DNA of 64,000 nt from an uncultured bacterium (GCA_963768835.1 CAVYJB010000001.1:281903-345902), one strand, 5' to 3'. Shown: positions 7,305-29,505, counted from the first letter of the stretch. The notes: generated from the letters alone by a model not told the origin. Numbers and translations are program-made.

Positions 7305-7380
7305 GCGGGCGTAGCTCAGCCCGGTTTAGAGCGTCCCCCTGTCACGGGGAAGGCCGTGGGTTCAAATCCCATCGCCCGCG
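7305..7380 (+). tRNA. tRNA-Asp (GTC)
   Basis: GCGGGCG/TA/GCTC-AGCCCGGTTTA-GAGC/G/TCCCC-CTGTCAC-GGGGA/AGGCC/GTGGG-TTCAAAT-CCCAT/CGCCCGC/G. Confidence 0.85.
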
Positions 7381-7388
7381 CAAACCCA

Positions 7389-7419
7389 GAAACCCTGATG
7401 TCGTCAGGGTTTCTTTTTA
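7389..7419 (+). terminator. rho-independent terminator downstream of tRNA-Asp
   Basis: AACCCTGAtgtcgTCAGGGTT followed by tcttttt; the palindromic stem is perfect. Confidence 0.65.
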
Positions 7420-7524
7420 CACCCTTGTGAGACGTTGGAACTGGTCGTTATTAAAGATTCCTACTCTCCGGAAGAAAAAGACCCCGTTCATATCGAACGG
7501 GGTCAACATCAAGAACCAAAGAGG

Positions 7525-8208
7525 TCAGCTGCGGGAGAACACGCAAGAGCCATCGTCCCACCTGTCGTCATCCAGGCCGATCGCATTCAGGTCCCACACG
7601 CGGAAACCAGAGCCCCAGCGCACGCGCACCGCAACCACGCGCGAATCTTCCAGTCGAATATAGAAGATGTTGGCGTAGCCGTTCGTGAGGAGGATTCCAT
7701 CCTCACCGTTCGGTTGCCTAGTGAGCAGATCACGAATAATCACAGCGAACTCTCCTGCGGTAAAGGGTCTCGGTTGCCCGAGCTCGTTCAGGATGGCCGA
7801 GTCATACATATACTCGGTGAGCTGGGTCTTCATAAGATTGCCCTGAAACGCCTCAATGGTTTCAGGTATTTCCTTGAGCACCCAGTCTGCGAAGCTGTCC
7901 CCGAAGTAGAGCTTCACGGGACCGGTCTTCATGAAGAAGGAGTGTTTGGGAAAAGGCGCGTTGGCCACCCTGAACGCGGCGATGAGCTGCCTCAGGGATT
8001 TCAGAGCGAGGCCCTTCGCTCCATTCGTTCCGGCTACGATGAGTCCGGCAATCATTCCCGCCATCTGGGGAATCAGGTTATTCTTCGACTTCAATGCGTC
8101 GAAGATTTGCTCCTCCGTCACATTCTGCTTCTTCAGTTCCTTGAAGAGCGCGGAGAAGAAGTCCACCACGAACATCAGGGCTTGCATCACCAGCGATTTG
8201 CGTGCCAT
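7525..8208 (-). CDS. hypothetical protein (228 aa from MARKSLV...), cargo gene bracketed by the duplicated tRNA-Asp 3' flank
   Basis: ATG (cat 8206-8208) is preceded by GGAGGTG. No motif was recognised by eye. The overlapping plus-strand ORF 7435..8445 is rejected as antisense. Confidence 0.5.
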   Translation of the reverse strand: MARKSLVMQALMFVVDFFSALFKELKKQNVTEEQIFDALKSKNNLIPQMAGMIAGLIVAGTNGAKGLALKSLRQLIAAFRVANAPFPKHSFFMKTGPVKLYFGDSFADWVLKEIPETIEAFQGNLMKTQLTEYMYDSAILNELGQPRPFTAGEFAVIIRDLLTRQPNGEDGILLTNGYANIFYIRLEDSRVVAVRVRWGSGFRVWDLNAIGLDDDRWDDGSCVFSRS

Positions 8209-8291
8209 ATGGCACCTCCAGTATTGTGGTTTTCCATCACTCCGTCGTTTGGTCGGGAGCATCGGAAAAACCATTGGGAAAGAACGACATC

Positions 8292-8320
8292 GTTATACTA
8301 TGACAATTTGTACATGTCAA
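8292..8320 (-). promoter_or_regulatory. sigma70-like promoter (TTGACA-17 nt-TATAAC) reading toward the 7525..8208 gene
   Basis: Minus strand reads TTGACAtgtacaaattgtcatagTATAAC. The -35 is consensus and the spacing is 17 nt. The -10 ends about 84 nt upstream of the ATG. Confidence 0.45.
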
Positions 8321-8350
8321 GCATATCCTCACTACTACCTCTAGTGTACC

Positions 8351-8395
8351 AGCTTCGCCACAAAAATCGGCTCCTTCTGCTCCGCAGTAGAGAGC
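8351..8395 (+). repeat. partial copy (5' half) of the ~75-bp intergenic direct-repeat family
   Basis: CCAGCTTCGCCACAAAAATCGGCTCCTTCTGCTCCGCAG shares CTTCGCCACAAAAA...CCTTCTGC with the three full copies. Confidence 0.5.
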
Positions 8396-8454
8396 ACCTA
8401 AGAATTCAGTTTGAAAGGAGCCTCGGCGCAATTAGGACGATTTAGATATATATC

Positions 8455-8527
8455 CAACTTCGCCACAAAAACAGACCCCCCGTACCCCCGTATCGCAGTT
8501 CCAATAGCGTCCACGAGGGCGCGCAAA
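8455..8527 (+). repeat. ~75-bp intergenic direct repeat, copy B, fused to a second copy of the tRNA-Asp 3' flank/terminator (8513..8590)
   Basis: CAACTTCGCCACAAAAACAGACCCCCCGTACCCCCGTATCGCAGTTCCAATAGCGTCCACGAGGGCGCGCAAACC. The GTTCCAATAGCGTCCACGAGGGCGCGCA core is identical in copies C and D. Confidence 0.7.
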
Positions 8528-8532
8528 CCTAG

Positions 8533-8561
8533 AAACCCTGATACCATCGGGGTTTCTTTTT
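8533..8561 (+). terminator. degenerate second copy of the tRNA-Asp-flank terminator
   Basis: AGAAACCCTGATACCATCGGGGTTTCTTTTTGCACCC versus AGAAACCCTGATGTCGTCAGGGTTTCTTTTTACACCC at 7384..7420. The stem is weakened by substitutions. Confidence 0.45.
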
Positions 8562-8688
8562 GCACCCCTACGGGATGTTGGAACTACTCAAGATTTTTAT
8601 AAAAATCGGCGGGCCTCACTCTCGTTATAGGGAGTTGACGCTCAAAGAGGTCGGAGTCTTATCCGACTTAAGCTGGGTTATCCTAAAA

Positions 8689-9447
8689 TTATTTTATACC
8701 CACTATTCCTGTAACATCCAACGGCCGTTCCATAAAACCATTAATCAGTCTTCTCTTGCAATGTTCCGCAAGCGCCTTGCGTGCTTGATCCTTTTTATCT
8801 TCTGAAACTAGGTTCCACAGACTCACTGACTGAAAATAGGCAATCGCGTGGTCGAGCGTAAAATGCTCGCTAACTTCTTTTTTCTCCTTGGTGACTTTTT
8901 GGAACCCACCCTCCTGAAGAATATTCTCCGGGTCATAATGCCTCTTTGCATCGGGAATTTCGCATGAAATAAATGGTTTTAATATCATACGGTATTCCTT
9001 TTTGAAATTGCCGGAATCGTTCTTGTTCACTACGAAAAATATTCCACCGGGCTTCAATACCCTCTTTATCTCTTTCACTGATTCCCTGTCACAGAACCAA
9101 TGAAATGCACTAAAGGCAGTAACCGCATCAAACGTTTCGTTGGAAAATGGCAGATGATTTGCAGGAGCGATGCAGTACGTTGCCTCACTTTCGTTTTTTT
9201 CTTCTGCAATCCGAATCATCTCCGGATCATTGTCGGCCCCGAAAATCTTTGCACTAGGCCGTAACAATTGCCGGGTCGAAATCCCCGTCCCACATCCAAG
9301 GTCTAACACCTTCGGCTGTTCACAGACGACTAATCGCCAAAAGCAATCAATAGTCTCTTGAGGAAATCCTTGTCGGGCTTCATCGTATTGCTTCCCTAGA
9401 TTTCCAAACTTTCCGTACCCTGGTTTTGCCTTGGTCACTTGTCGCAC
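8689..9447 (-). CDS. class I SAM-dependent methyltransferase
   Basis: VLDLGCGTGIST motif I and LKPGGIFFV motif. GTG start at 9447 is preceded on the coding strand by TGgTAGAAT, then 6 nt, then GTG. Local GC is visibly lower than the window average. Confidence 0.7.
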   Translation of the reverse strand: MRQVTKAKPGYGKFGNLGKQYDEARQGFPQETIDCFWRLVVCEQPKVLDLGCGTGISTRQLLRPSAKIFGADNDPEMIRIAEEKNESEATYCIAPANHLPFSNETFDAVTAFSAFHWFCDRESVKEIKRVLKPGGIFFVVNKNDSGNFKKEYRMILKPFISCEIPDAKRHYDPENILQEGGFQKVTKEKKEVSEHFTLDHAIAYFQSVSLWNLVSEDKKDQARKALAEHCKRRLINGFMERPLDVTGIVGIK

Positions 9448-9573
9448 AGTTATATTCTACCACGCGGCTCCCTTCAGATATTGACAAAATATAAATATAA
9501 TGTATTATGTGCGCAGAAACAGAGCCTATTAAGGGCTTTAACAATTCATTTAGACAACTGAGAGGGGTATTGT

Positions 9574-10325
9574 ATGGAACGTCTAGCACGGTGGCAATCT
9601 CATATCACGAGTGTTCGAAGGGATAGGCTCGTGACCTACAGCGTCAATCAGGAGAAGATAATAAGAACGTTCTCGTATGAGGCGATGGTCTACTTCTTGT
9701 TGTTTGGAAAACAACCGTCGCGCGTCACGGCAAGGATGCTCCGAGCCGTCATTCTATCCCACTGCAGCCATGGTATTACCGGACAAAGCACACTTGCGGT
9801 TCGCATGGCGACCGATTGTCGTTCGCCGTTTCTCAACGCCGCGCTAGGAGGGTTCTTGTTGGTTCAGGCACCTTTCATCAAGGAGGACTCGAGATGGCGA
9901 TGAAAGAGCTCCAATCTGCGCTAGCAGCTCCGAGTATTGAGAAATATATTGCCGACAAGCTCTCAAGGAAGCAAATAGTCTACGGTTACGGGCATCGTTT
10001 TCACAAACATGATCCGCGCGCCCGTTGCTTAATGCAATTGTGTCGCCGGCATTCTTTCCTGGGTCCTCACGTAAGGGCGGCAATGAAGATTGACCAAATT
10101 CTGGGAAAGAGGAAGCAGATTCACATGAACATCGAAGCAGCGTGTGGATCTATTCTCCTGGATATAGGATTCCCGTCGGAGATCGCCGCGTTAATCATAC
10201 TCATCGGTCGAGGTCCAATGTTCGCCGCAGCGTACATGGAGCGACTTGCATCCTCACGAAAAACCTTCCAGAAGGTAAAGGTGTTTGATCTTATACCAAC
10301 ACGAAGAGGGCGACGACATGCCTAG
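9574..10325 (+). pseudogene. citrate synthase/citryl-CoA lyase-like gene split by a frameshift near 9850-9856
   Basis: Frame A (9574..9903) ends ...SPFLNAALGGFLLVQAP. Frame B (9816..10325) carries GTFHQGGLEMAMKEL and the GYGHRFHKHDPRA block resembling the citrate-synthase signature G[FY]GH.VY...DPR. One missing base next to the GGG at 9850-9852 would join them into about 250 aa. Confidence 0.5.
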
Positions 10326-11031
10326 ATCATTGGTGTATGCGGTAATCCCAGCGCGTGGCGGATCAAAAGGACTCCGTGGGAAGAATCTCAGGTTGCTCCA
10401 CGGCCAACCGCTCATCAGTTACATCATTCGTGCCGCGCTTCAAGCACAAACAATCGACAGGGTATTCGTCTCAACAGAGAACGATGAAATAGCGAGGGTT
10501 GCCATGCGGTACGGAGCGAAGGTCATTCGACATCCCAAGTCGCTTTCGACCTCAACCACGTCAACGTTCGGCGTCATCCGGCGTGCGGCAAAAATATTCA
10601 AAAAGAAGTGGCGCCGCCCCGACGTATTGGTGACCATGCGGGCGACTTCCCCACTTTGTGAGCCAACTGACGTCGATAATGCCGTAAGGCTGCTCTTCAG
10701 AAAAAATGCTGATTCGGTAGTAAGTGTCGCAAAGTCTGACGTTCACCCTCTCCGGATGCTCAGGAAGAATCGAAAGAAGGAGCTGGAGCATTTCGACAAG
10801 CGGAGTAGCGAACGGAATTTTCCCCATCGCCGTCAGTCGTTCGGTGACGTGTACATCAGGAATGGTGCAATCTACGCCACGAGGACTGAGGTTATCGAAA
10901 GGGGCAGCCTGTGGGGGAAACATTGTGTTCCTTATGTGATGCCGAAAGAGCGTTCTGTGAACATCAACGACTGGATTGACTTCTTGCTAGCGGAATCGCT
11001 TCTAAAGCAACGCGTAAAGCCGCTATCGTGA
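10318..11031 (+). CDS. acylneuraminate/nonulosonate cytidylyltransferase family (CMP-sugar synthetase, NeuA/PseF-like)
   Basis: AVIPARGGSKGLRGKNLRLLHGQPLISYII...IDRVFVSTEND is the characteristic N-terminal CTP-transferase motif. ATG at 10318. Confidence 0.7.
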   Translation: MPRSLVYAVIPARGGSKGLRGKNLRLLHGQPLISYIIRAALQAQTIDRVFVSTENDEIARVAMRYGAKVIRHPKSLSTSTTSTFGVIRRAAKIFKKKWRRPDVLVTMRATSPLCEPTDVDNAVRLLFRKNADSVVSVAKSDVHPLRMLRKNRKKELEHFDKRSSERNFPHRRQSFGDVYIRNGAIYATRTEVIERGSLWGKHCVPYVMPKERSVNINDWIDFLLAESLLKQRVKPLS

Positions 11032-11052
11032 TACGATAGCGGCTTTTTATTC
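11016..11052 (+). terminator. rho-independent terminator at the end of the cytidylyltransferase gene
   Basis: AAAGCCGCTATCGtgatacGATAGCGGCTTTttatt; the stop codon lies in the loop. Confidence 0.65.
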
Positions 11053-11119
11053 CAGAATATAGTGAGACTGAAACAGATTTTATTATTCTCCAGTCGCAGT
11101 GTCAGGTACGGTACCTAAA

Positions 11120-11195
11120 CCCAGCCTCGCCACGAAAACAGAGTCCTTCTGCCTTCGTATCGCAGTTCCAATAGCGTCCACGAGAGCGCGCAAAT
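11120..11195 (+). repeat. ~75-bp intergenic direct repeat, copy C
   Basis: CCCAGCCTCGCCACGAAAACAGAGTCCTTCTGCCTTCGTATCGCAGTTCCAATAGCGTCCACGAGAGCGCGCAAATG. Confidence 0.7.
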
Positions 11196-11298
11196 GTTTT
11201 TTGCCGCCTCCTTTGTGGGGCGGCATGAAGCATCTATCGGTCTTGCGTGTTACAAATATCCGGACGCCAGCGTGGTAGATTAAGCGCCGACCACTCGG

Positions 11299-12750
11299 TT
11301 ACGCCACCCTTGATACTGTAAGCTCTAACGCCCTCTCTCGCAGGAGCGCCGCCACAACCCTTGCCCGTATTCCCATGGGACACACGAGGAGCACCTCCCG
11401 ATTTTTCCATTGTTTTGAAAACTTCGAAAGATTACCAGTAATAGCATTCGAATCCATACGCTTTGACCCGGGGAGACGGAAGTGGATAAATTCTCCATGC
11501 GGCCGGACATCGATAATGGATACTCCTTGCCGCAGGGCAACATCATGGCCCTCCTTGATCTGCGCCCACGCTTTTTGGGGAGGTACCGGGTACGCCATTT
11601 CATATGCGTCGCGAGGATCCACATCGAAGCCTAAGAAGGTGGTCCCGGTCTTCCGCTTCGGAGGTCTTATCTCCCCGGGCTTGTTCATCAGTAGTTCCTC
11701 GTGTTCAATGCCTGGGAAATGGGAGGCATCGAGATACTCAAAGTACTCCTCGATATACGGGAACGGACCGTCGGGGCAGATGAAAACCGCGACAATTTCA
11801 CCGTTCTTGCCCCGCAAATCATTAAGCCCTCCTTCGCTCTTCCGCTTTGAGAAAAACTGCAGCAACCCTTGAAGCGCGAGGCCGGAACTTGGCCCGGCGA
11901 CAACGCCCGCCCGGCACAATTCCAAGCTCTTTTCGTACGATTCTTTCGTACCGACCTCTTCGATATGATCGGTCGCCTGTCGCCAGTCGAAAGCGATTTC
12001 TCGGAGAAGATTCGGGGTTCTCACCCCCGGCACGGGATTATTGGGGAGCCGCGCAACACCGACTCTCACGATCTTCGTTGTTCGTTTCTTGAGATACCCT
12101 CCGGCGCCCACCATCGTTCCCGTCGTACCGAGACCGGAGCAGAATACGCGGATCTTCCCTTCCGTCTGTTCCCATATCTGCGGCCCCGTCCATCGTTCGT
12201 GCGCACCCGGGTTCGCTTCGTTGTCATACTGCCCCGGGTTGAACCATCCCCTACGCCTGCCGATTCGCTTCGCCCTGTAGATGCCGCTCTCCTTATCCGC
12301 AGGATCCGGACAGATCGGCTCCTTGTTCACTACGATCTCCGTCCCAAAGAAGCGGAGTAGTTGGAGCTTGCCCCACGTTACCTCGTGCGACACGATGGCC
12401 CTTGTTTTCGGGATCCCGAACAGCCTCCCGATCACCGCCAAGGAGAAAACGGTGTTTCCAGAGGAGTTTTCGATCAGCGACCGTATACCGCCCAATCCCT
12501 TGGTGCCCCCTCGTTCGAGAAGCATGTTATAGGCCGGAAGAGATTTCACGTTCGCGAGCGGCAGGAAATTCATAAGCTTCGCAAAGACGCGAACTCCGTC
12601 TTCGGCAAATGGGTTGAGATGCGACGGAATCTCCACCAACGGGAGGGGCGGGCTGCGGTCGGGATTCAGGAAATCCTTCACAGCCTCCGGACCGGCGAAG
12701 ACGTTAAACGGTTTTTCGGTTTTGGGAGCGTGTTTTGACATAGTTCTCAA
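11299..12750 (-). CDS. PLP-dependent cysteine synthase family protein fused to a C-terminal rhodanese domain
   Basis: Tryptophan-synthase-beta-fold motifs are present (ENSSGNTVFSLAVIG; CSGLGTTGTMVGAGGYLKK). The C-terminal ~100 aa look like rhodanese (VSIIDVRPHGEFIHFRLPGSKRMD...VLLVCPMGIRARVVAALL with active-site Cys). The listed start overlaps the upstream gene; the true start is probably the MSKHAPK Met at ~12741. Confidence 0.7.
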   Translation of the reverse strand: MRTMSKHAPKTEKPFNVFAGPEAVKDFLNPDRSPPLPLVEIPSHLNPFAEDGVRVFAKLMNFLPLANVKSLPAYNMLLERGGTKGLGGIRSLIENSSGNTVFSLAVIGRLFGIPKTRAIVSHEVTWGKLQLLRFFGTEIVVNKEPICPDPADKESGIYRAKRIGRRRGWFNPGQYDNEANPGAHERWTGPQIWEQTEGKIRVFCSGLGTTGTMVGAGGYLKKRTTKIVRVGVARLPNNPVPGVRTPNLLREIAFDWRQATDHIEEVGTKESYEKSLELCRAGVVAGPSSGLALQGLLQFFSKRKSEGGLNDLRGKNGEIVAVFICPDGPFPYIEEYFEYLDASHFPGIEHEELLMNKPGEIRPPKRKTGTTFLGFDVDPRDAYEMAYPVPPQKAWAQIKEGHDVALRQGVSIIDVRPHGEFIHFRLPGSKRMDSNAITGNLSKFSKQWKNREVLLVCPMGIRARVVAALLRERALELTVSRVA

Positions 12751-13696
12751 AATCGAACGTTTCGTCTATCTGCTTCGTGAGGTCGCCGTACCGTTCGGCG
12801 ATAAACCCCTGCGCAACGTAGCGACGGTGTAGCTCGTAAAGCTTCCGAAGCCGCTTTTTGTAGTCCGGAGTGATTGAGAAAAGCCTTCTTTCGATGTGCG
12901 CCAACAGGGTTTTATTTTCTCCTTCCAACAAATCGACGTTCAGCGCACCGCCTTCCTGGTCCTTCCTACGTAGATATGCAGATTCTTTGAAAAGCCCGAG
13001 GAGTTTTTCCGCCGGGATGGCTTTCTTTATGAATTCCGCGTCAGTTTGGGACCGCACCTTGTTGCCAACCACAAAGAGTGAATCGTAGACCCCCGCTTCT
13101 AGGGCAAGCTTCCGGTATTGCTCGAATACCTCGAGGCCCCGCTTCGTCGGCTCAACGGTGAGCACGAGCATCTCGAATTGCGCGTGGAGCGTGTTTGCAA
13201 AGGCATCAATCCCAGCGACCATATCGGTCACAACGACGCCAGAAGCATCCGCAAGGTGAGAGAGGATGTTCTCAAGGATTGCGAGATTGTTGTGATAACA
13301 GCTGGCGCCGATCTCCTCGCTATCGTAGGTTCCGACGACCAGCAACCGCAGTTTCTCATCGCCCGAGCCAAATCGGGAAAGGACGGGGTCCTGAGGATCG
13401 TCCAAATATATGAGATTCGATTCGGCGGTAGGCGGGGTCGTTTTGCGGAATTGCGCAAGGCCTTTAATGCGTGTATTCCCGCCTTTTAAGTGCGTCTTGA
13501 TGACCCTTGCCGCATCGGGATGCGAGATATGCCTCTCAATCGGCAGCTCGGCTTCAAACCCCAAGAGCCCCCCGAGGTGCATATTCAAATCCGCGTCAAT
13601 GGCGAGCACCGGATGTTTCCTATTGATATATTCGGCAAAGAGAGCGGCCAGCGTTGTTTTCCCCGAACCTCCCTTGCCTACAAAAGCAATCCTCAT
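12704..13696 (-). CDS. CooC/MinD/ParA-family P-loop ATPase
   Basis: MRIAFVGKGGSGKTTLAALFA deviant Walker A; DADLNMHLGG; VVTDMVAGIDAF. Start is taken at MRIAF (cat 13694-13696); an upstream Met at 13732 is also possible. Confidence 0.65.
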   Translation of the reverse strand: MRIAFVGKGGSGKTTLAALFAEYINRKHPVLAIDADLNMHLGGLLGFEAELPIERHISHPDAARVIKTHLKGGNTRIKGLAQFRKTTPPTAESNLIYLDDPQDPVLSRFGSGDEKLRLLVVGTYDSEEIGASCYHNNLAILENILSHLADASGVVVTDMVAGIDAFANTLHAQFEMLVLTVEPTKRGLEVFEQYRKLALEAGVYDSLFVVGNKVRSQTDAEFIKKAIPAEKLLGLFKESAYLRRKDQEGGALNVDLLEGENKTLLAHIERRLFSITPDYKKRLRKLYELHRRYVAQGFIAERYGDLTKQIDETFDFENYVKTRSQNRKTV

Positions 13697-13737
13697 GCCC
13701 CTAACGATACAGACCACACTCTTCGAATACAAGTTAT

Positions 13738-13765
13738 TTGCAAGTAGTTTGCATTTAGATATAAT
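13738..13765 (+). promoter_or_regulatory. promoter-like TTGCAA-16 nt-TATAAT ending 6 nt before the fur-family start codon (leaderless-type); direct TTTGCA repeats overlap it
   Basis: ttatTTGCAAgtagTTTGCAtttagaTATAATgggaaaATG. Confidence 0.45.
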
Positions 13766-13771
13766 GGGAAA

Positions 13772-14236
13772 ATGCCAAAGAAAGATTTTTTCCGCGACAT
13801 ATTGAGAAAAAGCGGCTATAAAGCAACACCTTCCCGGCTCGCGATTCTTGGCGTCTTTAAGGAAACGAGAAATCCGATGAGCGCCCAGGAGATTATCGAC
13901 GCGCTTCCCTCGGATACCGACCAGGCCACCGTCTATCGGACGCTCAAGCTATTGAATGAGAAAGGAGTCATCAAGCAAATCGACCTGCGGCACAACCATG
14001 CCCATTACGAACTTGCCGACCTGAAGGAGCACCATCACTTGGTGTGCGTGCGCTGCGGTAGGATCGAGGACGTGCACCACTGCGGCGCCCTGGCTGTTCA
14101 GGACGCAGTTCTCAAGAGCTCGAGGCACTTTGCGGAAATCAGCAGCCATTCGCTTGAGTTCTATGGCATTTGCACTGCCTGCGTCAAAAAAAGCGAGGCT
14201 GCGCATGTCGCTCCCCATCGCAGTGCACCGCTCTAG
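13772..14236 (+). CDS. Fur-family metalloregulator (Fur/Zur/Nur/PerR-type)
   Basis: Winged-helix N-terminus (RLAILGVF...MSAQEI) and the HHHLVCVRCGRIEDV...C metal-site motifs. Confidence 0.8.
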   Translation: MPKKDFFRDILRKSGYKATPSRLAILGVFKETRNPMSAQEIIDALPSDTDQATVYRTLKLLNEKGVIKQIDLRHNHAHYELADLKEHHHLVCVRCGRIEDVHHCGALAVQDAVLKSSRHFAEISSHSLEFYGICTACVKKSEAAHVAPHRSAPL

Positions 14237-14246
14237 TAGACCACCC

Positions 14247-15431
14247 ATGAAGCATTTCATTCGACACCTGAATCGTCGTCGGAGAATGTACCTTGAGATA
14301 GCTCTTGCGGTCATCGTCATTGTCGGGTGTTCCCTCTTGTATCGCGCGGAGGAAACGAACATTGATGCCTATCTCGCGACGACATTCCCAAGCCCTGCGA
14401 TCAGTCTCGGTGAGGTTATCTCGGTCAGCCCAGCGACAGGTACGATAGGTGCCTATCCCACCTCCCACGTCTCGGTATTATTGCTGACGGGCATGGATAC
14501 AGGAACGACAACCCAGATTACCAGCCAGTCAGGGGATAGTTCGGTCAAGAATAGCTATCTCCAAGTGGTCCCGGGCGAGAAGGTCCTCCTCGCGAAAGAC
14601 GACATGAGTCGTTCTGGCGGAGAGTCCTACTACATCACCGACCGATTCCGATTACCGGCGATCCTTTTTATCATCCTTCTGTTTGTTGCGGTGGCGGTAC
14701 TGTTCGGGCGACTACGGGGATTCACCTCTATTGTGGGATTTGGAATAAGCGTCGGAGTGCTTGGATGGTACGTGGTGCCCCAAATTCTGGAGGGCACCGA
14801 TCCCCTCACCGCTTGTCTTATCGGAGCAGCGGGGATTGCACTCGTATCGCTCTACCTTGCACACGGGTTCAACACGCGAACGACTCTCGCGCTCTGTGGG
14901 ACATTAATTGCACTGGCCGTTTCTGCACTCCTCGCCATTCTTTTCGTCTCAGCTTCGCGGCTCGTCGGTCTGGCGACCGAAGAGTCGTTCGCGGTGGCAA
15001 TCGGGAACGGCACCAGTTTAAGCCTCAGGGGCATTCTTCTCGGAGGCATCATTATTGGGACTCTTGGCGTATTGGACGACGTGACGATCGGACAGTCCGC
15101 CACGGTCGCAGAACTCAATGATGCCAACCCAACACTGGGCTTCAGGGAGTTGTATCGGCGGGGAATGTCGGTGGGTCGAGAGCACATCGCCTCACTCATC
15201 AACACGTTGTTCCTCGCGTACGCGGGTGTTGCCCTGCCGATCATCCTCTATATTGCAGCTTTCCAGAGCAAAATCCCGCTATGGCTCACGGTGAACGGTG
15301 AACCAATCGCCGAGGAGATTGTCCGCACCATGGTGGGGAGCATCGGCATCATCTTTGCTGTTCCTATCACCACGGTTCTCGCGGCTTACTACTACGGCAA
15401 ACACATACATAGAAAGAAAGAGGGTGTATAA
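14247..15431 (+). CDS. YibE/F-family integral membrane protein
   Basis: Multi-pass hydrophobic profile with the YibE/F-like pattern LGVLDDVTIGQSATVAEL...REHIASLINTLFLAYAG. Start is taken at MKHFIRH (ATG 14247), just after the fur stop. Confidence 0.65.
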   Translation: MKHFIRHLNRRRRMYLEIALAVIVIVGCSLLYRAEETNIDAYLATTFPSPAISLGEVISVSPATGTIGAYPTSHVSVLLLTGMDTGTTTQITSQSGDSSVKNSYLQVVPGEKVLLAKDDMSRSGGESYYITDRFRLPAILFIILLFVAVAVLFGRLRGFTSIVGFGISVGVLGWYVVPQILEGTDPLTACLIGAAGIALVSLYLAHGFNTRTTLALCGTLIALAVSALLAILFVSASRLVGLATEESFAVAIGNGTSLSLRGILLGGIIIGTLGVLDDVTIGQSATVAELNDANPTLGFRELYRRGMSVGREHIASLINTLFLAYAGVALPIILYIAAFQSKIPLWLTVNGEPIAEEIVRTMVGSIGIIFAVPITTVLAAYYYGKHIHRKKEGV

Positions 15432-15464
15432 TAAAGAAAAGGTCGTGGGAGTATTCTCATAACC

Positions 15465-15605
15465 ATGCCAAAGAAAGCGAAGAAGAAGGTGCGGAAAACG
15501 GGACCTAAGCATATGTACCTCTGCGCGTGCGGTCGCGGCACATGTCGATGCCGCCCCTGCAAGTGCAAGTGCAAGAAGGGGGTCTGCGTGTGCGTTTGTA
15601 AGTGA
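15465..15605 (+). CDS. unannotated 46-aa lysine- and cysteine-rich protein (13 Cys), metallothionein-like
   Basis: ATG 15465 to TGA 15603-15605. Translation is MPKKAKKKVRKTGPKHMYLCACGRGTCRCRPCKCKCKKGVCVCVCK. GTGGGAG lies 13 nt upstream. A TATAAT at 15427-15432 overlaps the yibE/F stop. A strong terminator follows immediately. Confidence 0.45.
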   Translation: MPKKAKKKVRKTGPKHMYLCACGRGTCRCRPCKCKCKKGVCVCVCK

Positions 15606-15613
15606 AAACCACG

Positions 15614-15641
15614 GCCGCCAGGGAGATCCTGGCGGTTTTTG
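15614..15641. terminator. rho-independent terminator (bidirectional, between convergent genes)
   Basis: GCCGCCAGGgagatCCTGGCGGttttt. Confidence 0.65.
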
Positions 15642-15671
15642 GTTACAAGAGGGATGTCCGAATCAGCACGC

Positions 15672-16052
15672 CTACATAGATCCCAAGTAAAGCAAAACCA
15701 AGCCCAGAAGAAAGGCAACGATTCCTCCGAAGATGAGTACGCCCTCCTTGTTGCACTTCTGATACAGCGTAACGGCGGGGCCAGGAAGGAGAAGGAGAAA
15801 AGCTCCTTTGATGACCGTGAGCCACCCAAGGACCGTGATGAGTAACGGGAGACCGGAGGTCCAGGTGTTGTTCATCACGACAATCACGGCACCCATGGTC
15901 AAAATGAGGAAGCTCCACAGCCACAAGAATCCACGGTCCTGAGTTACCTTTCCAAGGGCGGTCGACATAGTCTTTCTGTCGATCACCACTGATAGACCCA
16001 TGACCGCGAAAATAATACCCAGTGCCTGAGTGATAGCGACGGCGACGTTCAT
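15672..16052 (-). CDS. small integral membrane protein (about 4 TM), hypothetical
   Basis: Hydrophobic throughout (AITQALGIIFAVMGLSVVI...LLGLVLLYLG); ATG at 16052. Confidence 0.5.
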   Translation of the reverse strand: MNVAVAITQALGIIFAVMGLSVVIDRKTMSTALGKVTQDRGFLWLWSFLILTMGAVIVVMNNTWTSGLPLLITVLGWLTVIKGAFLLLLPGPAVTLYQKCNKEGVLIFGGIVAFLLGLVLLYLGSM

Positions 16053-16189
16053 ATATTTTATGTTAGTGGTAACGATACACCACCGGCCTTTCTATTATTA
16101 TAACGCTATTGGGAACATTCGCTCCGCGGGTACGATCCGGACCCACTCTAACCCATCGACCGTTGACTAAGTCCGTTTGCAGCCAGGTC

Positions 16190-16256
16190 CGGTATACGAA
16201 TAGGCTCCTTCTGCTCCCGTATTCTGGTTCCAATAGCGTCCACGAGGGCGCGCACT
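16190..16256 (+). repeat. ~75-bp intergenic direct repeat, copy D
   Basis: CCGGTATACGAATAGGCTCCTTCTGCTCCCGTATTCTGGTTCCAATAGCGTCCACGAGGGCGCGCACTAATAATT. Confidence 0.65.
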
Positions 16257-16278
16257 AATAATTGATCTAGCTAGATAT

Positions 16279-16309
16279 AAAAACCGCCGAAATTTACTCG
16301 GCGGTTTCT
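16279..16309 (-). terminator. rho-independent terminator for the giant beta-helix protein gene
   Basis: Minus strand reads AAACCGCCGAgtaaatttCGGCGGTTTttatatc. Confidence 0.6.
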
Positions 16310-16342
16310 ATTTTATCCTGCCTGAATATCTGAATATTACTC

Positions 16343-19300
16343 CTATTGCCCCGTTCCAAACCCCACGTCATCGAGATACCAGGTGGTGGCGGTGCCGATA
16401 CCCCCGATATAGATGCGGGTGAGCTGGAAGCCTGCAGGGAGCTTGTAGTTCGCGAGGGGAATCGAGACTTCGGTCCACTGGTTGGCCCCAAGGGCGGGAG
16501 TGGGGGCTCCATAGAGGCCCGAAGGGCCTTGGAGGGTGGTGTGAAGCGTGATAGGGGTCGTGGGGTACACCCAGAACTGGAAGGTGGTGTAGCCGGAGAT
16601 CGATTGAGGAGAGGTCCAGGACTGGAAGCTCACGGAACCTGTGGGCTGGGAAACCGCCTTGATGGAGGCGCTGCCGGAGTGGACCTGCGCGGTGGAGTTG
16701 TACGTGTAGACTCCGCGGAAGGAGGCTTTCTGCCAGGGGGAAAGGAGGGAGTCCTGGTAGACGGAGAGGGAGGGGGAAGAACCGGAGGGAGGGGTGGGAG
16801 GGGGTGGCGTGGAGACGGGTGGCGTGGAGACGGGTGGCACAGGGGCAGCGCTTCCACTACTCACCTTCTCAAGTTTGCTGCCGTCAGACCAGCCTGTCGT
16901 TCCATCCGAATACGCGATCTTCCAGAAGGTGTAGCCAGAGGCAGCATCAGGGGAGGGACCCGCGAGGACAGTGCCTTGGGCACCTGCCACCTCGCACTTG
17001 TAGATGTTCGAGGGGATGGTGGGATTGTCGCGGGCATTCAGACAATCTGTTGTGAGAACGACGCGAATCGTGTCTCCAATCGTGAAAGCACCGCCACCAC
17101 CTCCTCCGCCTCCGCCACTACTCACCTTCTCAAGTTTGCTGCCGTCAGACCAGCCTGTCGTTCCATCCGAATACGCGATCTTCCAGAAGGTGTAGCCAGA
17201 GGCAGCATCAGGGGAGGGACCCGCGAGGACAGTGCCTTGGGCACCTGCCACCTCGCACTTGTAGATGTTCGAGGGGATGGTGGGATTGTCGCGGGCATTC
17301 AGACAATCTGTTGTGAGAACGACGCGAATCGTGTCTCCAATCGTGAAAGCACCGCCACCAACGACAGCTGGCGCCAGGACCGTCACCGGCTGCGAAGTCG
17401 CGGTGTTGCCCAGGGAGTCCGTGGCCTTCACGGTCAGAGTGTGGGAGGAACCGGCAGGAAGTCCGGAGGTGTTCCAGGAGAGGGTGTAGGGGGAGGTGGT
17501 GTCGGTGCCGATACTGGTACCGTCCACGAAGAACTGCACGCTTGCGAGGGTGGCGCCTGTCCCATGAGCCGAGGCGGAGGCGGCGAGGGTCACCGTACCC
17601 TGGACCGTGGCGCCCGAGGAAGGGGCGGTGAGGGAGACCGAGGGGGCGCTCGGGAGGGCGGTGTTGCTCACCGTGACCGCATAGCCCTGCGTGGTCGCAC
17701 AGTTGCTGTGGGTGTCACAGGCTTTCTCGGAGAGGGTGTGAGAACCGTTCGAAACACTGGTGGTATCCCAGGAGGCGGTATAGGGACTCGTGGTGTCGGT
17801 CGAGAGGAGGGAGCCGTCCACATAGAAGGAGAGGGAGGAGACCGCATCATCGGGATCGGAGGCCGTGGCACTCAAGGTCGCGGTGCCGGAGAGGGTCGCG
17901 CCCACGGCAGGCGCGGTCGGGGTGATGGTGGGAGCGGTGGTGTCGGCTCCGACGGTGCTCACCACCGTCACGGTGATGCCGGGGGTCGAGGCACAGTTCC
18001 CGTGGGTGTCGCAGGCCTTCGCGGAGAGGACATGGGAGGAACCATTGGGGAGGGAGGCGGTGTTCCAGATGGCCTGATACGGGGAGGTGGTATCGGTGCT
18101 GATGATCGTGGAACCGTCGTAGAAGGTGACGGAGGAGACCGCGTCATCCACGTCCGAGGCGCTTGCAGAAAGAGAGACGGATCCTGTGACCGAGGTACCG
18201 TTCTGAGGCCCATTCAGGGTGACGGAGGGGGCGGTGGTGTCGGTGCTAATGGGACCGCCGGTCGTACGCATTAGGACGTAAACCGCGAAGTCGGAACTTG
18301 TGTGCGAAATAGGGCGTGAATCGTTACCCACCTTGGGCGGAAGGGTGCCCCCCAGCGGTATCGAAATGGTGCCACCATTCCAAATGCCCGAGGCCACGGC
18401 GGGTCCGAAGTAGTTCTGCGCATCTTGAACGGTGTAGGAATTCCCCAGCGACAAGATCCCAGTCGGGTCCACGCTGACGGGGCTGGTCCCCTGCCAGTAC
18501 GCGACGATGTTGGCCCGGCCCGCCTCGTACTTATTGGGGCGGATGAACACCTTGCTCGTCGCCGGCTTGGCCGTCGTCGCAGCGTTGCCAGAGGGGATGG
18601 GGTCGTTCGTCACCGAGGTATCGTAAATCGTGTTCCCGCTGAAGGTCATGTTCGTATTGTTGTTGAGGGTCAGCGTCCCCCCCGCCATATAGTTTCCGGT
18701 AACCACAGCCCCTATCGTACCCAGCGCCCCGTAGCCGATGGGGTAGGCCATGAAAAACATGTTCGTCCCGGCGCCGCCCTGGCCGTCGAGATAGATCATG
18801 TTGTTCTCGATGACGGGATTTTGAGCGACGGCCGTTGCGCCGAGCAGAAAGTTACGCTCCCCGCCGTTGACAGCGACGTTCCCGTTGAACGTGATCCCGT
18901 CCAGAAACCCGCTTTCGGCGTACGCGTCTATGTTCGTCGAATACGCGCGCAGGAATATATTGTCGGCGACGGTCTTGGAGCCGGTATTCTGAATGGTTTG
19001 GATGTAAATGCCATGCCCGTGCGGCCGATCGGGGCCGGTCCAGCCATTGTCGTAAACGACGTTCCCGTAATACTCGGCTTGGTCGGCCTGCTGCCATGCG
19101 CTGAAGCCCTGCCGCGTGTCGTGAACAATGCAGTTGATGAACTTCATGCCCGGGTGCAGGCTTCCCTGATCGATCACCATGCCCTCGCCGCTGGGCAAGA
19201 TACTGGGCTTGGGCCAGGAGGGGTTCGGCACGCCCTTCGAATCGGGCCAGTAATTAGCCAGGCTCACAGGGATCCCAGAAATATCCTTGACGGGGGAAGA

Positions 19301-19699
19301 GCTCATGACCTCAAGACCCCAAAGCCAGGTATAGGACCCGCTCACCAGGAAAACGGGATTGCCGTTGGAATTTCCTCCGTCGATAGTGGCCCGCTGGCCG
19401 TTGTAGTTGCGGACGATAATAGGGCTGGATGCGGTCCCGTTAAGATTCGAAGTGAAGGTTCCGAAATACGTTCCTCCCAACAGCCAGATTGTATCGCCCG
19501 CATGGACGCTAGACGGCTGGTTCAGCGCCGTCTGGAGATCCCACGGACTCGACTGCGAGCCGCTGCCTCCCGAACTTCCGTTCGGGGATACGTACCACTG
19601 GGACGCCGCATGTACCTCGACCGGCGGCAGAACCGTTGCCGCTCCTACCGAACCGACGACTACCGCGCACACGAACAGGAGAATGGAAAACTTCTTCAT
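16343..19699 (-). CDS. large secreted multidomain protein: signal peptide, right-handed beta-helix (pectate-lyase-like), Ig-like domains, two identical SH3b-like modules, Pro/Thr linker, C-terminal CBM-like domain
   Basis: Start is taken at MKKFSILLFVCAVVVGSVGA (cat 19697-19699). The N-domain has the NxxGxxxxxIxxN-type beta-helix rhythm. Three Ig-like modules follow (VTFYDGSTIISTDTTSPY..., LSFYVDGSLL..., VQFFVDGTSIG...). The module GDTIRVVLTTDCLNARDNPTIPSNIYKCEVAGAQGTVLAGP...GYTFWKIAYSDGTTGWSDGSKL is repeated twice. The C-terminal ~150 aa look like a sugar-binding beta-sandwich. Confidence 0.75.
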   Translation of the reverse strand: MKKFSILLFVCAVVVGSVGAATVLPPVEVHAASQWYVSPNGSSGGSGSQSSPWDLQTALNQPSSVHAGDTIWLLGGTYFGTFTSNLNGTASSPIIVRNYNGQRATIDGGNSNGNPVFLVSGSYTWLWGLEVMSSSPVKDISGIPVSLANYWPDSKGVPNPSWPKPSILPSGEGMVIDQGSLHPGMKFINCIVHDTRQGFSAWQQADQAEYYGNVVYDNGWTGPDRPHGHGIYIQTIQNTGSKTVADNIFLRAYSTNIDAYAESGFLDGITFNGNVAVNGGERNFLLGATAVAQNPVIENNMIYLDGQGGAGTNMFFMAYPIGYGALGTIGAVVTGNYMAGGTLTLNNNTNMTFSGNTIYDTSVTNDPIPSGNAATTAKPATSKVFIRPNKYEAGRANIVAYWQGTSPVSVDPTGILSLGNSYTVQDAQNYFGPAVASGIWNGGTISIPLGGTLPPKVGNDSRPISHTSSDFAVYVLMRTTGGPISTDTTAPSVTLNGPQNGTSVTGSVSLSASASDVDDAVSSVTFYDGSTIISTDTTSPYQAIWNTASLPNGSSHVLSAKACDTHGNCASTPGITVTVVSTVGADTTAPTITPTAPAVGATLSGTATLSATASDPDDAVSSLSFYVDGSLLSTDTTSPYTASWDTTSVSNGSHTLSEKACDTHSNCATTQGYAVTVSNTALPSAPSVSLTAPSSGATVQGTVTLAASASAHGTGATLASVQFFVDGTSIGTDTTSPYTLSWNTSGLPAGSSHTLTVKATDSLGNTATSQPVTVLAPAVVGGGAFTIGDTIRVVLTTDCLNARDNPTIPSNIYKCEVAGAQGTVLAGPSPDAASGYTFWKIAYSDGTTGWSDGSKLEKVSSGGGGGGGGGAFTIGDTIRVVLTTDCLNARDNPTIPSNIYKCEVAGAQGTVLAGPSPDAASGYTFWKIAYSDGTTGWSDGSKLEKVSSGSAAPVPPVSTPPVSTPPPPTPPSGSSPSLSVYQDSLLSPWQKASFRGVYTYNSTAQVHSGSASIKAVSQPTGSVSFQSWTSPQSISGYTTFQFWVYPTTPITLHTTLQGPSGLYGAPTPALGANQWTEVSIPLANYKLPAGFQLTRIYIGGIGTATTWYLDDVGFGTGQ
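16854..17360. repeat. perfect tandem duplication, 2 x 261 bp (16854..17114 = 17115..17360), inside the giant protein gene
   Basis: Read off directly: tcaccttctcaagtttgctgccgtcagacc...cgtgaaagcaccgccacca occurs twice with a 261-bp period. Identical short ORFs are listed at 17004 and 17265. Confidence 0.8.
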
Positions 19700-19788
19700 G
19701 GTTGGGTTAAAAAAGGAGACCTTTTGATTGACTGGGTATATTATACATCGCCACGAATGGGATTCCATACGTTTAAAGTGCATAATCC

Positions 19789-19821
19789 CAAAAGAAAAGG
19801 AGGCGCCGCGGCGTCTCCTTG
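19789..19821 (-). terminator. rho-independent terminator after the hypothetical gene 19851..20369
   Basis: Minus strand reads GGAGACGCCGCGGCGCCTCCttttctttt (imperfect GC stem followed by a T-run). Confidence 0.45.
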
Positions 19822-19850
19822 TGATTCATACAATATCAGGCCAGAAAGCG

Positions 19851-20369
19851 TTATCGAGCGCCTCTCATCCGCTGTTCTAGTTCACGTCGAAGCTGCGCGC
19901 GGTATCGTTCCTGTGCTCCACCAATAAGTCTCTCGGTAGACCACGACGACGGTCTCTTGAAGCCTTGCGGCAGCGGGAGAAGTTGAAGCGCCACATCGAC
20001 CATCCGGGCCTCGGAGGTCAGCGCCCTCAAAGGATCTTTCTCGGCGTCTTCCCGGTACCACATCCGCAGTTCGTGGAGAAGGAGAATAGCAAGCGTGCGT
20101 TTGCTGGCGCGTTTGAGAGAAAAAACGGGGCGCACCCGGCTTGGAATCGGCGCCTTCCTCCCCGCAGCTTCTTCAAAGAGCCTCTGTGGTCTGAAAAAGT
20201 CGGGATTATACATATCCGGCATCGGCATAATGCCGATTGCCGATTCTAACAACACGCTCCTAAAGCCGCGACCCATCGAGACTCCACCCGCGTCGTGGGA
20301 CTGCCACAGTTGACGAAGGATGAGTCTCGCCACCTGCTCATTTGTCAGCGTAGAAAGTGACTGGTGCAC
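19851..20369 (-). CDS. hypothetical protein (172 aa)
   Basis: It is the only long ORF in a ~650-bp gap and is followed by a terminator-like hairpin on its own strand. No motif was recognised. Confidence 0.35.
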   Translation of the reverse strand: MHQSLSTLTNEQVARLILRQLWQSHDAGGVSMGRGFRSVLLESAIGIMPMPDMYNPDFFRPQRLFEEAAGRKAPIPSRVRPVFSLKRASKRTLAILLLHELRMWYREDAEKDPLRALTSEARMVDVALQLLPLPQGFKRPSSWSTERLIGGAQERYRAQLRRELEQRMRGAR

Positions 20370-21499: not shown

Positions 21500-21514
21500 A
21501 CCTAGAAACCGTCT

Positions 21515-29495: not shown

Positions 29496-29505
29496 TGCGA
29501 TGGGA

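What the first reader, a model, noticed from the sequence alone, without database searches (positions are those of the whole stretch)
7305..16256. tRNA-Asp-proximal accessory tract punctuated by a ~75-bp direct-repeat family (3.5 copies)
Four same-orientation copies of a ~75-bp element share the core GTTCCAATAGCGTCCACGAGGGCGCGCA, preceded by CCTTCTGC and CGCCAC(A/G)AAAACAG: 8351-8395 (partial), 8455-8527, 11120-11195 and 16190-16256. They sit only in intergenic DNA and partition ~9 kb after tRNA-Asp into cassettes: a single hypothetical gene; a low-GC cassette of methyltransferase, citrate-synthase-like pseudogene and cytidylyltransferase; and a metal/sulfur module. Dispersed direct repeats at cassette boundaries next to a tRNA are what serial site-specific integration (att-site reiteration) or a MITE/REP-like element family would leave. 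No integrase is present, so mobilisation would have to be in trans or ancient.
Basis: seen in the sequence. Interest (0 to 1): 0.65.

Follow-up and report, generated by a model that had tools for sequence, protein, structure and literature searches.

The report
tRNA-anchored gene-cassette array with pseudo-tRNA junctions
The ~75-bp repeats are real and look like the junction scars of gene cassettes inserted one after another at the 3' end of a tRNA-Asp gene in an ultra-small (Patescibacteria) bacterium, and the same conserved junction element marks such insertions in at least ten distant relatives, none with an integrase inside the insert.

Summary
There are three full same-strand copies (8449-8527, 11116-11194, 16178-16256) and one 5' fragment (8349-8383), all intergenic, all downstream of tRNA-Asp (7305-7381).

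The element (EL) is not a REP/MITE: each genome has one locus. It is not a detectable structured RNA: no Rfam hit and no covariation. Its 28-nt core is a diverged copy of a tRNA-Asp 3' end (T-loop to acceptor, plus 5 nt).

The exact 20-mer occurs in only 13 public loci, nearly all Patescibacteria. In every locus with enough flank it lies 1-7 kb downstream of a tRNA on the same strand: tRNA-Asp nine times, tRNA-Leu once. The genes in between are unrelated from genome to genome.

Syntenic relatives lack both the cargo and the EL. The window has 14.1 kb where relatives have 0.3-0.7 kb. A clean empty/occupied pair exists at tRNA-Leu, where the EL's last bases switch from GCGCA to GCACA to match that tRNA.

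Best reading (about 0.6): the EL is the attR-side arm of site-specifically integrated cassettes stacked at the tRNA end and moved in trans. No recombinase is encoded in the window. This is a new variant of a known kind, of moderate interest.

The parts
7305..7381 (+). tRNA-Asp(GTC), anchor of the array (attL side). Its last bases, CGCGCA (7377-7382), are shared with every repeat copy.
   Evidence: ARAGORN; Rfam tRNA 68 bits; alignment.
7390..7443 (.). First P'-type arm: a terminator hairpin (7390-7418) followed by an inverted, 3-nt-deleted copy of the repeat core (7420-7443, minus strand, CAGTTCCAACGTCTCACAAGGGTG).
   Evidence: Fuzzy search; local alignment against shuffles, 0 of 200 reach the score; sequence.
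7519..8208 (-). Cassette 1 cargo: a 227-aa protein of a Patescibacteria-only family. Its 3' end (7519-7641) is a DGR variable-repeat-like segment.
   Evidence: Homologues sit beside bAvd and a reverse transcriptase. It matches a template repeat elsewhere in the same genome (96/123 identical; 18 of 27 mismatches at template adenines).
8349..8383 (+). Truncated copy of the element: the 5' part only, with no core.
   Evidence: D19; profile positions 3-35, weak.
8449..8527 (+). Element copy 1 (core 8498-8525; shared end CGCGCA at 8520-8525).
8528..8585 (.). Second P'-type arm, about 80% identical to 7383-7443: terminator hairpin 8533-8561 and inverted core 8567-8585. Together with copy 1 it forms a composite palindrome.
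   Evidence: Alignment; alignment against shuffles, 0-5 of 200; DNA fold z = -5.45; RNA fold.
8689..11031 (.). Cassette 2 cargo (GC 0.44-0.53, the lowest 0.44 at 8.5-9.5 kb): SAM methyltransferase (8689-9447, minus), a citrate-synthase-like gene split into two ORFs (9574-9903, 9816-10325), and a cytidylyltransferase (10285-11031).
   Evidence: Pfam; composition.
11116..11194 (+). Element copy 2 (core 11165-11192). It has no inverted partner and is followed by the minus-strand terminator of the next gene.
11299..16052 (.). Cassette 3 cargo: a PLP-enzyme/rhodanese fusion, a CbiA/ParA-like ATPase, Fur, a YibE/F membrane protein, and a 126-aa ORF.
   Evidence: Pfam.
16178..16256 (+). Element copy 3, the distal end of the recognisable array (core 16227-16254). 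It is followed by a bidirectional terminator at 16281-16307.
7385..21514 (.). The whole variable tract between tRNA-Asp and gatA. It is 14.1 kb here and 0.3-0.7 kb of non-coding DNA (at most one extra gene) in four syntenic relatives.
   Evidence: tblastx/blastn synteny with L017; gene maps.

Best explanation
The repeats are junction (att-type) sites of a stack of gene cassettes inserted site-specifically at the extreme 3' end of the tRNA-Asp gene.

Each inserted unit has three parts. It begins with a 'P-prime' arm: a terminator hairpin, often followed by an inverted copy of the core. Cargo genes follow, in either orientation. It ends with the ~75-bp element (the 'P' arm). The last 28 nt of that arm are a conserved, non-functional imitation of a tRNA-Asp 3' end, finishing in the same CGCGCA as the real tRNA.

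I infer that a recombinase which recognises the T-arm/acceptor DNA of the tRNA also binds this imitation and exchanges strands in the shared 5-6 nt. A tyrosine integrase is the most likely enzyme. The tRNA stays intact, and each new cassette leaves another copy of the element downstream, always on the tRNA's strand.

Shown here: the linkage to the tRNA, the polarity, the variable cargo, the empty sites in relatives, and the dependence of the terminal bases on the anchor tRNA. Inferred: the enzyme class, the exact crossover point, and that movement occurs in trans, because no recombinase is encoded in the window or in any insert examined.
For: 1. tRNA linkage. The exact 20-mer of the core occurs in only 13 public loci and in 0 viral contigs. 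In all nine loci with enough upstream sequence (window, L001, L003, L005, L006, L007, L008, L011, L021), a tRNA-Asp lies 1-4.4 kb upstream on the same strand.

2. Unrelated cargo. The genes in between differ in every genome: DUF924/MauE, a pilin, NUDIX plus a PG-binding protein, a reverse transcriptase, ThiF, a CheB-CheR kinase, NYN, HAD.

3. Arrays elsewhere. A profile search finds further diverged same-strand copies that separate single ORFs in L001, L005, L007 and L009.

4. Empty sites in relatives. They keep the order pheT-pheS-tRNAMet-tRNAMet-NlpC-C39-tRNAAsp-gatA-ligA but lack both the cargo and the element.

5. Clean empty/occupied pair. In L043, tRNA-Leu ends ...CAGCACA|CGAAAAG, 29 nt from xer. 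L015 has 6.7 kb inserted exactly there. The element at the distal end of the insert finishes ...CTGCACA|CATGCGG rather than ...GCGCGCA.

6. tRNA-Asp-like core. The core aligns best to tRNA-Asp 3' ends among all tRNAs sampled (19 of 24 positions, with one 5-nt insertion; 1 of 500 shuffles reaches the score).

7. True direct repeats in relatives. Relatives carry ~190-nt mini-units bounded by 12-20-nt direct repeats of the real tRNA-Asp 3' end, starting in the T-loop. This is the classical signature of an integrase.

8. Cassette indel. L009 has one extra unit (ORF plus element) relative to L007, with the breakpoint inside the element.

9. Polarity follows the tRNA. The element keeps the tRNA's strand even where the adjacent gene is on the other strand (window copies 1 and 3, L006, L021).
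Against: No integrase or any other recognisable recombinase is encoded in the 64-kb window, nor inside any of the roughly ten inserts examined. The one adjacent tyrosine recombinase (L002/L015) looks like a housekeeping Xer. It sits beside the tRNA in the empty-site genome too.

The identity between the element and the resident tRNA is only 5-6 nt. A short target-site duplication made by another kind of enzyme would look the same.

The inverted core sits about 45-55 nt from the crossover, separated by a hairpin. That is not the geometry of a standard tyrosine-recombinase core site.

The set of elements was collected by exact 20-mer match, so the apparent invariance of the core is inflated. Copies found independently differ at 1-8 positions.

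No excised circles or polymorphic reads were examined.
Confidence: 0.6

Rival explanations
1. Integron-like capture platform. The composite palindrome (core, hairpin, inverted core) folds as single-stranded DNA, like an attC site, and recombines with the tRNA 3' end, which acts as an attI equivalent. The enzyme would be a trans-encoded recombinase, possibly the resident Xer-type one.
For: Arrays of mostly single, co-oriented ORFs, each followed by the element (L001, L005, L009). Internal and first junctions are strong palindromes (window copy 1 z = -5.45; L003 perfect 20-bp arms, z = -11.4). The outer boxes TTCCAAY...GTTGGAA resemble R''/R' of attC. No integrase lies inside the cassettes, as in integrons.
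Against: Many junctions have no inverted partner (window copies 2 and 3, and the L001, L003, L005, L006, L008 and L013 elements). The inferred crossover (CGCGCA) is at the loop-proximal end of the stem, not in the outer GTT box. No IntI gene was seen next to any array (ligA, C39 or tRNA-Met lie upstream). The GTT/AAC triplets are not conserved: the elements have CCAAT, and L007 has GTGGAAC.
Confidence: 0.12
2. Target-specific transposon (DDE or HUH type). It inserts just after the tRNA and duplicates 5 bp (GCGCA or GCACA). The element and the inverted core would be subterminal transposase-binding sites.
For: Only 5-6 nt are shared between the tRNA end and the element end, and they change with the anchor tRNA. 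Inverted copies of the core flank the cargo.
Against: In the L043/L015 pair, the inserted DNA extends about 47 nt beyond the left inverted copy, so the inverted repeats are not terminal. The mini-units in relatives are bounded by 12-20-nt direct repeats of the tRNA end, which is too long for a target-site duplication. No transposase was found anywhere (Pfam calls).
Confidence: 0.1
3. Passive repeats. The element is a conserved module (for example terminator-associated) that accompanies horizontally acquired genes. It is copied by duplication or homologous recombination and has no recombination-site function of its own.
For: No recombinase is linked to it. The 5' parts of the three window copies have diverged (68-82% identity), so the copies are old. 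The L007/L009 indel could also arise by homologous deletion between direct repeats.
Against: This does not explain the strict co-orientation with, and position just downstream of, a tRNA in ten genomes. Nor does it explain the switch of the terminal bases to match tRNA-Leu, the pseudo-tRNA nature of the core, or its conservation against diverged flanks.
Confidence: 0.1
4. A functional RNA. The element would be a tRNA-like 3' UTR element or small RNA (a minihelix mimic) that ends just before a terminator.
For: The element has tRNA length (about 73 nt). It usually starts 0-60 nt after a stop codon and is followed by an intrinsic terminator. It contains a T-loop-like GUUCCAAU and a small terminal hairpin GCGUCC/GGRCGC.
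Against: No Rfam family matches at gathering or permissive thresholds, and ARAGORN finds nothing. RNAalifold on 13 elements gives -1.4 kcal/mol with no compensatory pair. Substitutions in the variant cores (L009b, L005b) are not compensated. The element's orientation follows the tRNA, not the neighbouring gene. It is absent from syntenic relatives, so it is not a resident gene. No consistent promoter was found.
Confidence: 0.08

Closest known systems
Genomic islands and integrative elements at tRNA genes, including tandem accretion and cis-mobilisable remnants (CIMEs) flanked by att sites but lacking an integrase (from established knowledge of tRNA-targeting tyrosine integrases)
   Same: Insertion at the 3' end of a tRNA gene. 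Same-strand repeats bound each unit. Several units are stacked. The cargo varies between genomes. Relatives have empty sites. Some units lack an integrase.
   Different: The repeat is not the resident tRNA's 3' end. It is a conserved pseudo-tRNA-Asp segment with a 5-nt insertion, shared across distant Patescibacteria. Identity with the tRNA is only 5-6 nt at the very end, so the tRNA is never split. Units are very small (0.2-5 kb, often one ORF). No unit in any genome examined carries the integrase.
Integron cassette arrays and CALINs (clusters of attC sites lacking an integrase)
   Same: Short, often single-ORF cassettes, each followed by a ~70-110-bp site. Some sites are imperfect palindromes. 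No recombinase lies inside the cassettes. The array is anchored at one fixed chromosomal site.
   Different: No IntI or attI was found. Many sites are not palindromic. The sites are conserved in sequence rather than in structure. The inferred crossover position differs. The anchor is a tRNA gene.
Xer-dependent integrative elements (IMEX) and dif modules
   Same: Cargo modules without a recombinase of their own, moved by a host tyrosine recombinase. In one genome the target tRNA lies beside the xer gene.
   Different: The core has no dif-like dyad (11-bp arms around a 6-8-bp spacer). The arrays at tRNA-Asp are not near xer. No dif site was identified.
REP elements and MITEs
   Same: Short, intergenic, repeated, and often next to terminators.
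   Different: One locus per genome, a single strand, no terminal inverted repeats at the insertion boundaries, and a tie to a tRNA.

Membership tests
tRNA-targeting integrative element att sites (attL/attR, tandem accretion) | Same-orientation repeats bound the inserted DNA, one of them being the 3' end of a tRNA gene. | tested here: met
   tRNA-Asp lies on the same strand in nine loci and tRNA-Leu in one. The shared end is CGCGCA or GCACA. Relatives have 12-20-nt direct repeats of the true tRNA end.
tRNA-targeting integrative element att sites (attL/attR, tandem accretion) | The insert is absent at exactly that site in related genomes (empty attB). | tested here: met
   L043 (empty) against L015 (6.7 kb insert) at tRNA-Leu. 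Window (14.1 kb) against L017/L023/L025 at tRNA-Asp.
tRNA-targeting integrative element att sites (attL/attR, tandem accretion) | An integrase gene lies within the element, next to one att site. | tested here: not met
   None in the 54 window ORFs or in the inserts of L001, L003, L005-L009, L011, L015 and L021. The only neighbour of this kind is a housekeeping-type Xer outside the insert.
tRNA-targeting integrative element att sites (attL/attR, tandem accretion) | Excision to a circle with a reconstituted attP and attB. | not testable with these tools
   This needs read-level metagenome data or an experiment.
Integron / CALIN | attC architecture: an imperfect palindrome R''-L''...L'-R' with conserved RYYYAAC/GTTRRRY boxes at every cassette boundary. 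| tested here: not met
   A palindrome is present at some junctions but absent at window copies 2 and 3 and at several other loci. The boxes match only partly (TTCCAAT / GTTGGAA).
Integron / CALIN | An IntI integrase with attI at the head of the array. | tested here: not met
   Upstream of the arrays lie C39 peptidase/NlpC, ligA or tRNA-Met. No IntI was found.
REP / MITE | Many copies dispersed over the genome. | tested here: not met
   Copies in the 64-kb window are confined to 8.3-16.3 kb. A 913-kb contig has a single exact match. There is one locus per genome in both collections.
Structured RNA / tRNA-like RNA | A conserved secondary structure supported by covariation, or a match to a curated family. 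| tested here: not met
   No Rfam hit. RNAalifold gives -1.4 kcal/mol with 0 compensatory pairs. ARAGORN is negative.
DGR variable or template repeat | The repeats differ at adenines of a template and lie inside the 3' end of target ORFs. | tested here: not met
   The copies differ at all four bases and are intergenic. Separately, the cargo gene of cassette 1 does carry such a repeat.

The most novel reading that the evidence does not exclude
Patescibacteria possess an integron-like gene-capture system with three parts. A tRNA 3' end serves as the fixed landing site. A conserved pseudo-tRNA palindrome is carried by each cassette as the mobile recombination site. The enzyme is a recombinase encoded elsewhere, possibly the cell's own Xer-type enzyme. 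This would give these minimal-genome epibionts a dedicated, integrase-free cassette shuttle for accessory and defence genes.
Probability: 0.15. Interest if true: 0.8.

Novelty: new variant of a known kind. Interest (0 to 1): 0.55.

Why it matters
Patescibacteria (CPR) have tiny genomes, and little is known about how they gain and lose genes. A conserved, easily searchable 28-nt junction that marks cassette insertions at a tRNA end would give a direct handle on their accessory gene pool. The cargo seen here includes a DGR target, a reverse transcriptase, NYN and ThiF genes, and metal and sulfur modules. It would also help in finding the recombinase responsible. The pseudo-tRNA arm is a tidy example of a mobile site that imitates its target: the resident tRNA is never interrupted, yet the same protein could read both partners. 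I found no description of this arrangement in the searchable literature. The general principle, tRNA genes as integration hotspots with stacked islands, is well established.

Tried and rejected
1. Rfam at gathering and permissive thresholds on the window and on relatives: only tRNAs and chance terminator-like hits.

2. RNA folding and RNAalifold: individual folds are inconsistent between copies and show no covariation.

3. Cloverleaf or minihelix readings of the element, worked through by hand: the 5' strand does not covary with the invariant 3' strand.

4. Viral contigs. The exact 20-mer gives 0 hits. A degenerate core gives 10 hits, all inside two families of phage ORFs with no tRNA and no 5' part, so they are chance matches.

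5. The tyrosine recombinase beside the element in L002. It is a highly conserved Xer-type gene among ftsK, recA, pnp and rpsO, and it is present beside the tRNA in the empty-site genome as well. The adjacency is a by-product of where the tRNA lies.

6. DGR repeat hypothesis for the element: rejected. The search did reveal that the cassette 1 gene is a DGR target paralogue.

7. Direct repeats of the true tRNA-Asp 3' end elsewhere in the window: none found.

8. Sigma-70 promoter scan upstream of the copies: nothing consistent.

9. Literature searches for a prior description: none found.


Full report
**Observation.**
The 28-nt core is present three times on the + strand: 8498-8525, 11165-11192 (one mismatch) and 16227-16254. 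None is expected by chance. Extended, the copies are 79 nt long: 8449-8527, 11116-11194 (82% identity to copy 1) and 16178-16256 (68%). A fourth, truncated copy keeps only the 5' part (8349-8383). A profile built from the element finds no other copy in the 64-kb window. tRNA-Asp(GTC) is at 7305-7381.

**What the element is not.**
- It matches no Rfam family at curated or permissive thresholds, and ARAGORN sees no tRNA in it.
- Thirteen elements from different genomes give an RNAalifold consensus of -1.4 kcal/mol with no compensatory pair. Substitutions in the variant cores are not compensated in the 5' part.
- It is not a genome-wide repeat. The exact 20-mer GTTCCAATAGCGTCCACGAG occurs in 7 loci among 185,579 species genomes and 6 metagenome loci, always once per stretch, including once on a 913-kb contig. 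It occurs in no viral contig.
- A degenerate scan of viral contigs hit only two families of phage ORFs, which are chance matches.

**Where it occurs.**
The hits are nearly all Patescibacteria MAGs. The window's own genome is also Patescibacteria. Its best non-self PheS hits, at 65-70% identity, are from Patescibacteria, Jorgensenbacteria and Paceibacterota MAGs.

In every locus with enough upstream sequence, a tRNA-Asp(GTC) lies 1-4.4 kb upstream on the same strand. These loci are the window, L001, L003, L005, L006, L007, L008, L011 and, found independently through synteny, L021. The genes in between are unrelated from genome to genome.

The profile also finds more diverged same-strand copies. 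These turn several loci into arrays of the form tRNA-Asp, ORF, element, ORF, element (L001, L005, L007, L009). The element usually begins 0-60 nt after a stop codon and is followed by an intrinsic terminator. Even so, its strand follows the tRNA where the neighbouring gene is on the other strand (window copies 1 and 3, L006, L021).

**The core is a pseudo-tRNA-Asp 3' end.**
Among 37 tRNA 3' ends sampled, only the tRNA-Asp ends align well to the core. Against the L005 and L023 tRNA-Asp, 19 of 24 positions are identical with one 5-nt insertion: GGTTCcAATagCgTCCAC[GAGGG]CGCGC. Only 1 of 500 shuffles reaches the mean score.

The element and the resident tRNA share their last bases, CGCGC(A). In the window and in L001, the 3' flank of the tRNA (its terminator) is duplicated, at about 80% identity, after an element.

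About 45-55 nt downstream, beyond the hairpin, many junctions carry an inverted copy of the core or of the tRNA's own 3' end. These junctions are:
- window 7420-7443 and 8567-8585;
- the tRNA-Asp flanks of L001, L003 (a perfect 20 bp) and L006;
- the element flanks of L007, of L009 (both copies) and of L005b.

Such junctions fold as composite palindromes (z = -5.45 for copy 1, -11.4 for L003). Window copies 2 and 3 have no partner.

**Empty sites.**
Contexts of PheS homologues gave syntenic relatives with the order pheT, pheS, tRNA-Met, tRNA-Met, NlpC/P60, C39, tRNA-Asp, then gatA, gatC, ligA.
- The window is collinear with L017 on both sides of the tract. It has 14.1 kb (7385-21514) where L017 has 0.66 kb.
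- L017, L018, L023, L025 and L026 have no element at all.
- L021 has cargo (a HAD protein and a 301-aa protein) followed by an element whose core differs at one base.

The 'empty' relatives are not bare. They hold one to three ~190-nt mini-units. Each consists of a terminator, an inverted tRNA-Asp 3' end, about 100 nt with covarying hairpins, an A-rich stretch, and a 12-20-nt direct repeat of the true tRNA-Asp 3' end starting in the T-loop. That is the classical footprint of integrase action at a tRNA.

**A second, cleaner pair.**
In L043 the tRNA-Leu(TAG) gene ends ...CAGCACA|CGAAAAG, 29 nt from the stop codon of a Xer-type recombinase gene. In the related L015 (the full context of L002), 6.7 kb is inserted exactly there. 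The tRNA is followed by a P'-type arm homologous to those of L007 and L009. Next come a 1956-aa fn3/PG-binding protein and a DUF1801 protein. The insert ends with the element, finishing ...GAGGCTGCACA|CATGCGG.

So the element arrives with the cargo, at its distal end. Its last bases are GCACA where the anchor is tRNA-Leu and GCGCA where it is tRNA-Asp. The inserted DNA extends about 47 nt beyond the left inverted core. That argues against a transposon bounded by terminal inverted repeats.

**Cassette gain or loss.**
L007 and L009 share a reverse-transcriptase cassette. L009 has one additional unit (a 256-aa ORF plus an element) between two elements. The single L007 element resembles the first L009 copy on its left and the second on its right (76% against 68% on the right flank).

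**Mechanism.**
The simplest account is site-specific integration at the extreme 3' end of the tRNA, with the following parts.
- The mobile partner carries an attP made of the ~75-bp element (the P arm, whose core imitates the tRNA's T-arm and acceptor DNA).
- A 5-6-nt crossover segment follows it.
- Then comes a P' arm (a hairpin plus an inverted core).

Integration leaves the tRNA intact, followed by P'. It places the P arm, the crossover segment and the old flank at the far end. Repeated integration at the tRNA-proximal site stacks units.

This predicts what is seen in the window: complete palindromic junctions at the tRNA and at copy 1, and a bare final junction at copy 3. Copy 2 lacks the predicted P' arm, which I take as decay, and the fragment at 8349-8383 is a further remnant.

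The enzyme is not identified. No recombinase domain is found in any of the 54 window ORFs or in any insert. The Xer gene beside the L015 element is housekeeping-like: 77-92% identity over more than 120 clusters, among ftsK, recA and pnp, and present in the empty-site genome too. Movement must therefore be in trans, or the arrays are fossils. The divergence of the 5' parts of the three window copies (68-82% identity) shows that they are not recent duplicates.

**Comparison with known systems.**
In logic this is a tRNA-anchored stack of integrative units, including integrase-less ones, as in tandem accretion and CIMEs. It differs in four ways:
- the conserved, non-functional pseudo-tRNA arm;
- the very short identity with the tRNA;
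- the small, often single-ORF units;
- the absence of an integrase from every unit seen.

It resembles integron arrays in cassette size, the absence of an integrase inside the cassettes, and partly palindromic sites. It fails the attC and IntI criteria. It fails the REP/MITE and RNA-family criteria outright.

**Caveats.**
The element set was gathered by exact match, so the conservation of the core is overstated. Independent copies differ at 1-8 of 28 positions. The closest syntenic relatives are distant (PheS about 68% identical). The tract 16257-21514 (an Ig-like protein, a 172-aa ORF and YceG) is also absent from relatives, but no recognisable element bounds it. The crossover position is inferred from homology breakpoints, not observed.

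**Verdict.**
The repeat is a conserved pseudo-tRNA junction arm of tRNA-anchored cassette arrays in Patescibacteria. It is a new variant of a known kind, with interest about 0.55.

Noticed in passing
window 7519-8208 (minus); L040 2036-2158: The 'single hypothetical gene' of cassette 1 belongs to a Patescibacteria-only family that elsewhere sits next to bAvd and a reverse transcriptase. Its 3' end matches the template repeat of a diversity-generating retroelement located elsewhere in the same genome (96/123 identical; 18 of 27 mismatches at template adenines). It is probably a remote DGR target.
   Followed up: partly
window 5646-6206: A phage Mu Gam-like gene lies between tRNA-Met and the NlpC/P60 gene. 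Syntenic relatives (L017, L023, L025) have only a 64-66-aa ORF at that position, so this is a second small insertion next to a tRNA.
   Followed up: partly
window 16854-17099 and 17115-17360: A 246-nt direct repeat pair, 100% identical, with copies 15 nt apart, lies inside the 1146-aa Big_7 Ig-like gene (16343-19783, minus). It is either a very recent duplication or an assembly artefact.
   Followed up: no
window 53461-54378: This ORF has a 5-hmdU DNA kinase helical domain, a domain known from phage thymidine hypermodification. It lies next to the tRNA-Ser gene.
   Followed up: no
window 9574-10325: The citrate-synthase-like gene is split into two overlapping ORFs (9574-9903 and 9816-10325). 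This is consistent with a frameshifted pseudogene inside the low-GC cassette.
   Followed up: no
L017 7560-7920, L021 2950-3200 and 5200-5490, L023 7030-7585, L025 8060-8298: ~190-nt mini-units follow tRNA-Asp in relatives. Each has a terminator, an inverted tRNA-Asp 3' end, two hairpins that covary between genomes, a conserved GGAGGAAGCCGAGCC...GGGGGAGAAAAATCC stretch, and a direct repeat of the tRNA end. The inverted and direct copies could close a long stem. No Rfam match. They could be bare att remnants or a small RNA.
   Followed up: partly
L003 6672-6760: A perfect 20-bp inverted repeat of the tRNA-Asp 3' end brackets the tRNA's terminator (DNA fold z = -11.4).
   Followed up: partly
L009 532-1773: The reverse-transcriptase gene shared with L007 is interrupted by a 1.24-kb insert that carries a 382-aa ORF with no Pfam match. 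It may be an undescribed insertion sequence.
   Followed up: no
L043 10895-11005, L015 10889-17764: In two related Paceibacteria-like genomes, the xer-type recombinase gene ends 29 nt (empty site) or 10 nt plus the element (occupied site) from the tRNA-Leu(TAG) integration point. Whether this recombinase acts on the site is unknown.
   Followed up: partly
window 28810-30406: Four ~155-nt repeats, spaced 412-516 nt apart, coincide with a run of paralogous pilin-like genes carrying the N-terminal methylation motif, inside a type IV pilus locus (26.9-37.1 kb).
   Followed up: no
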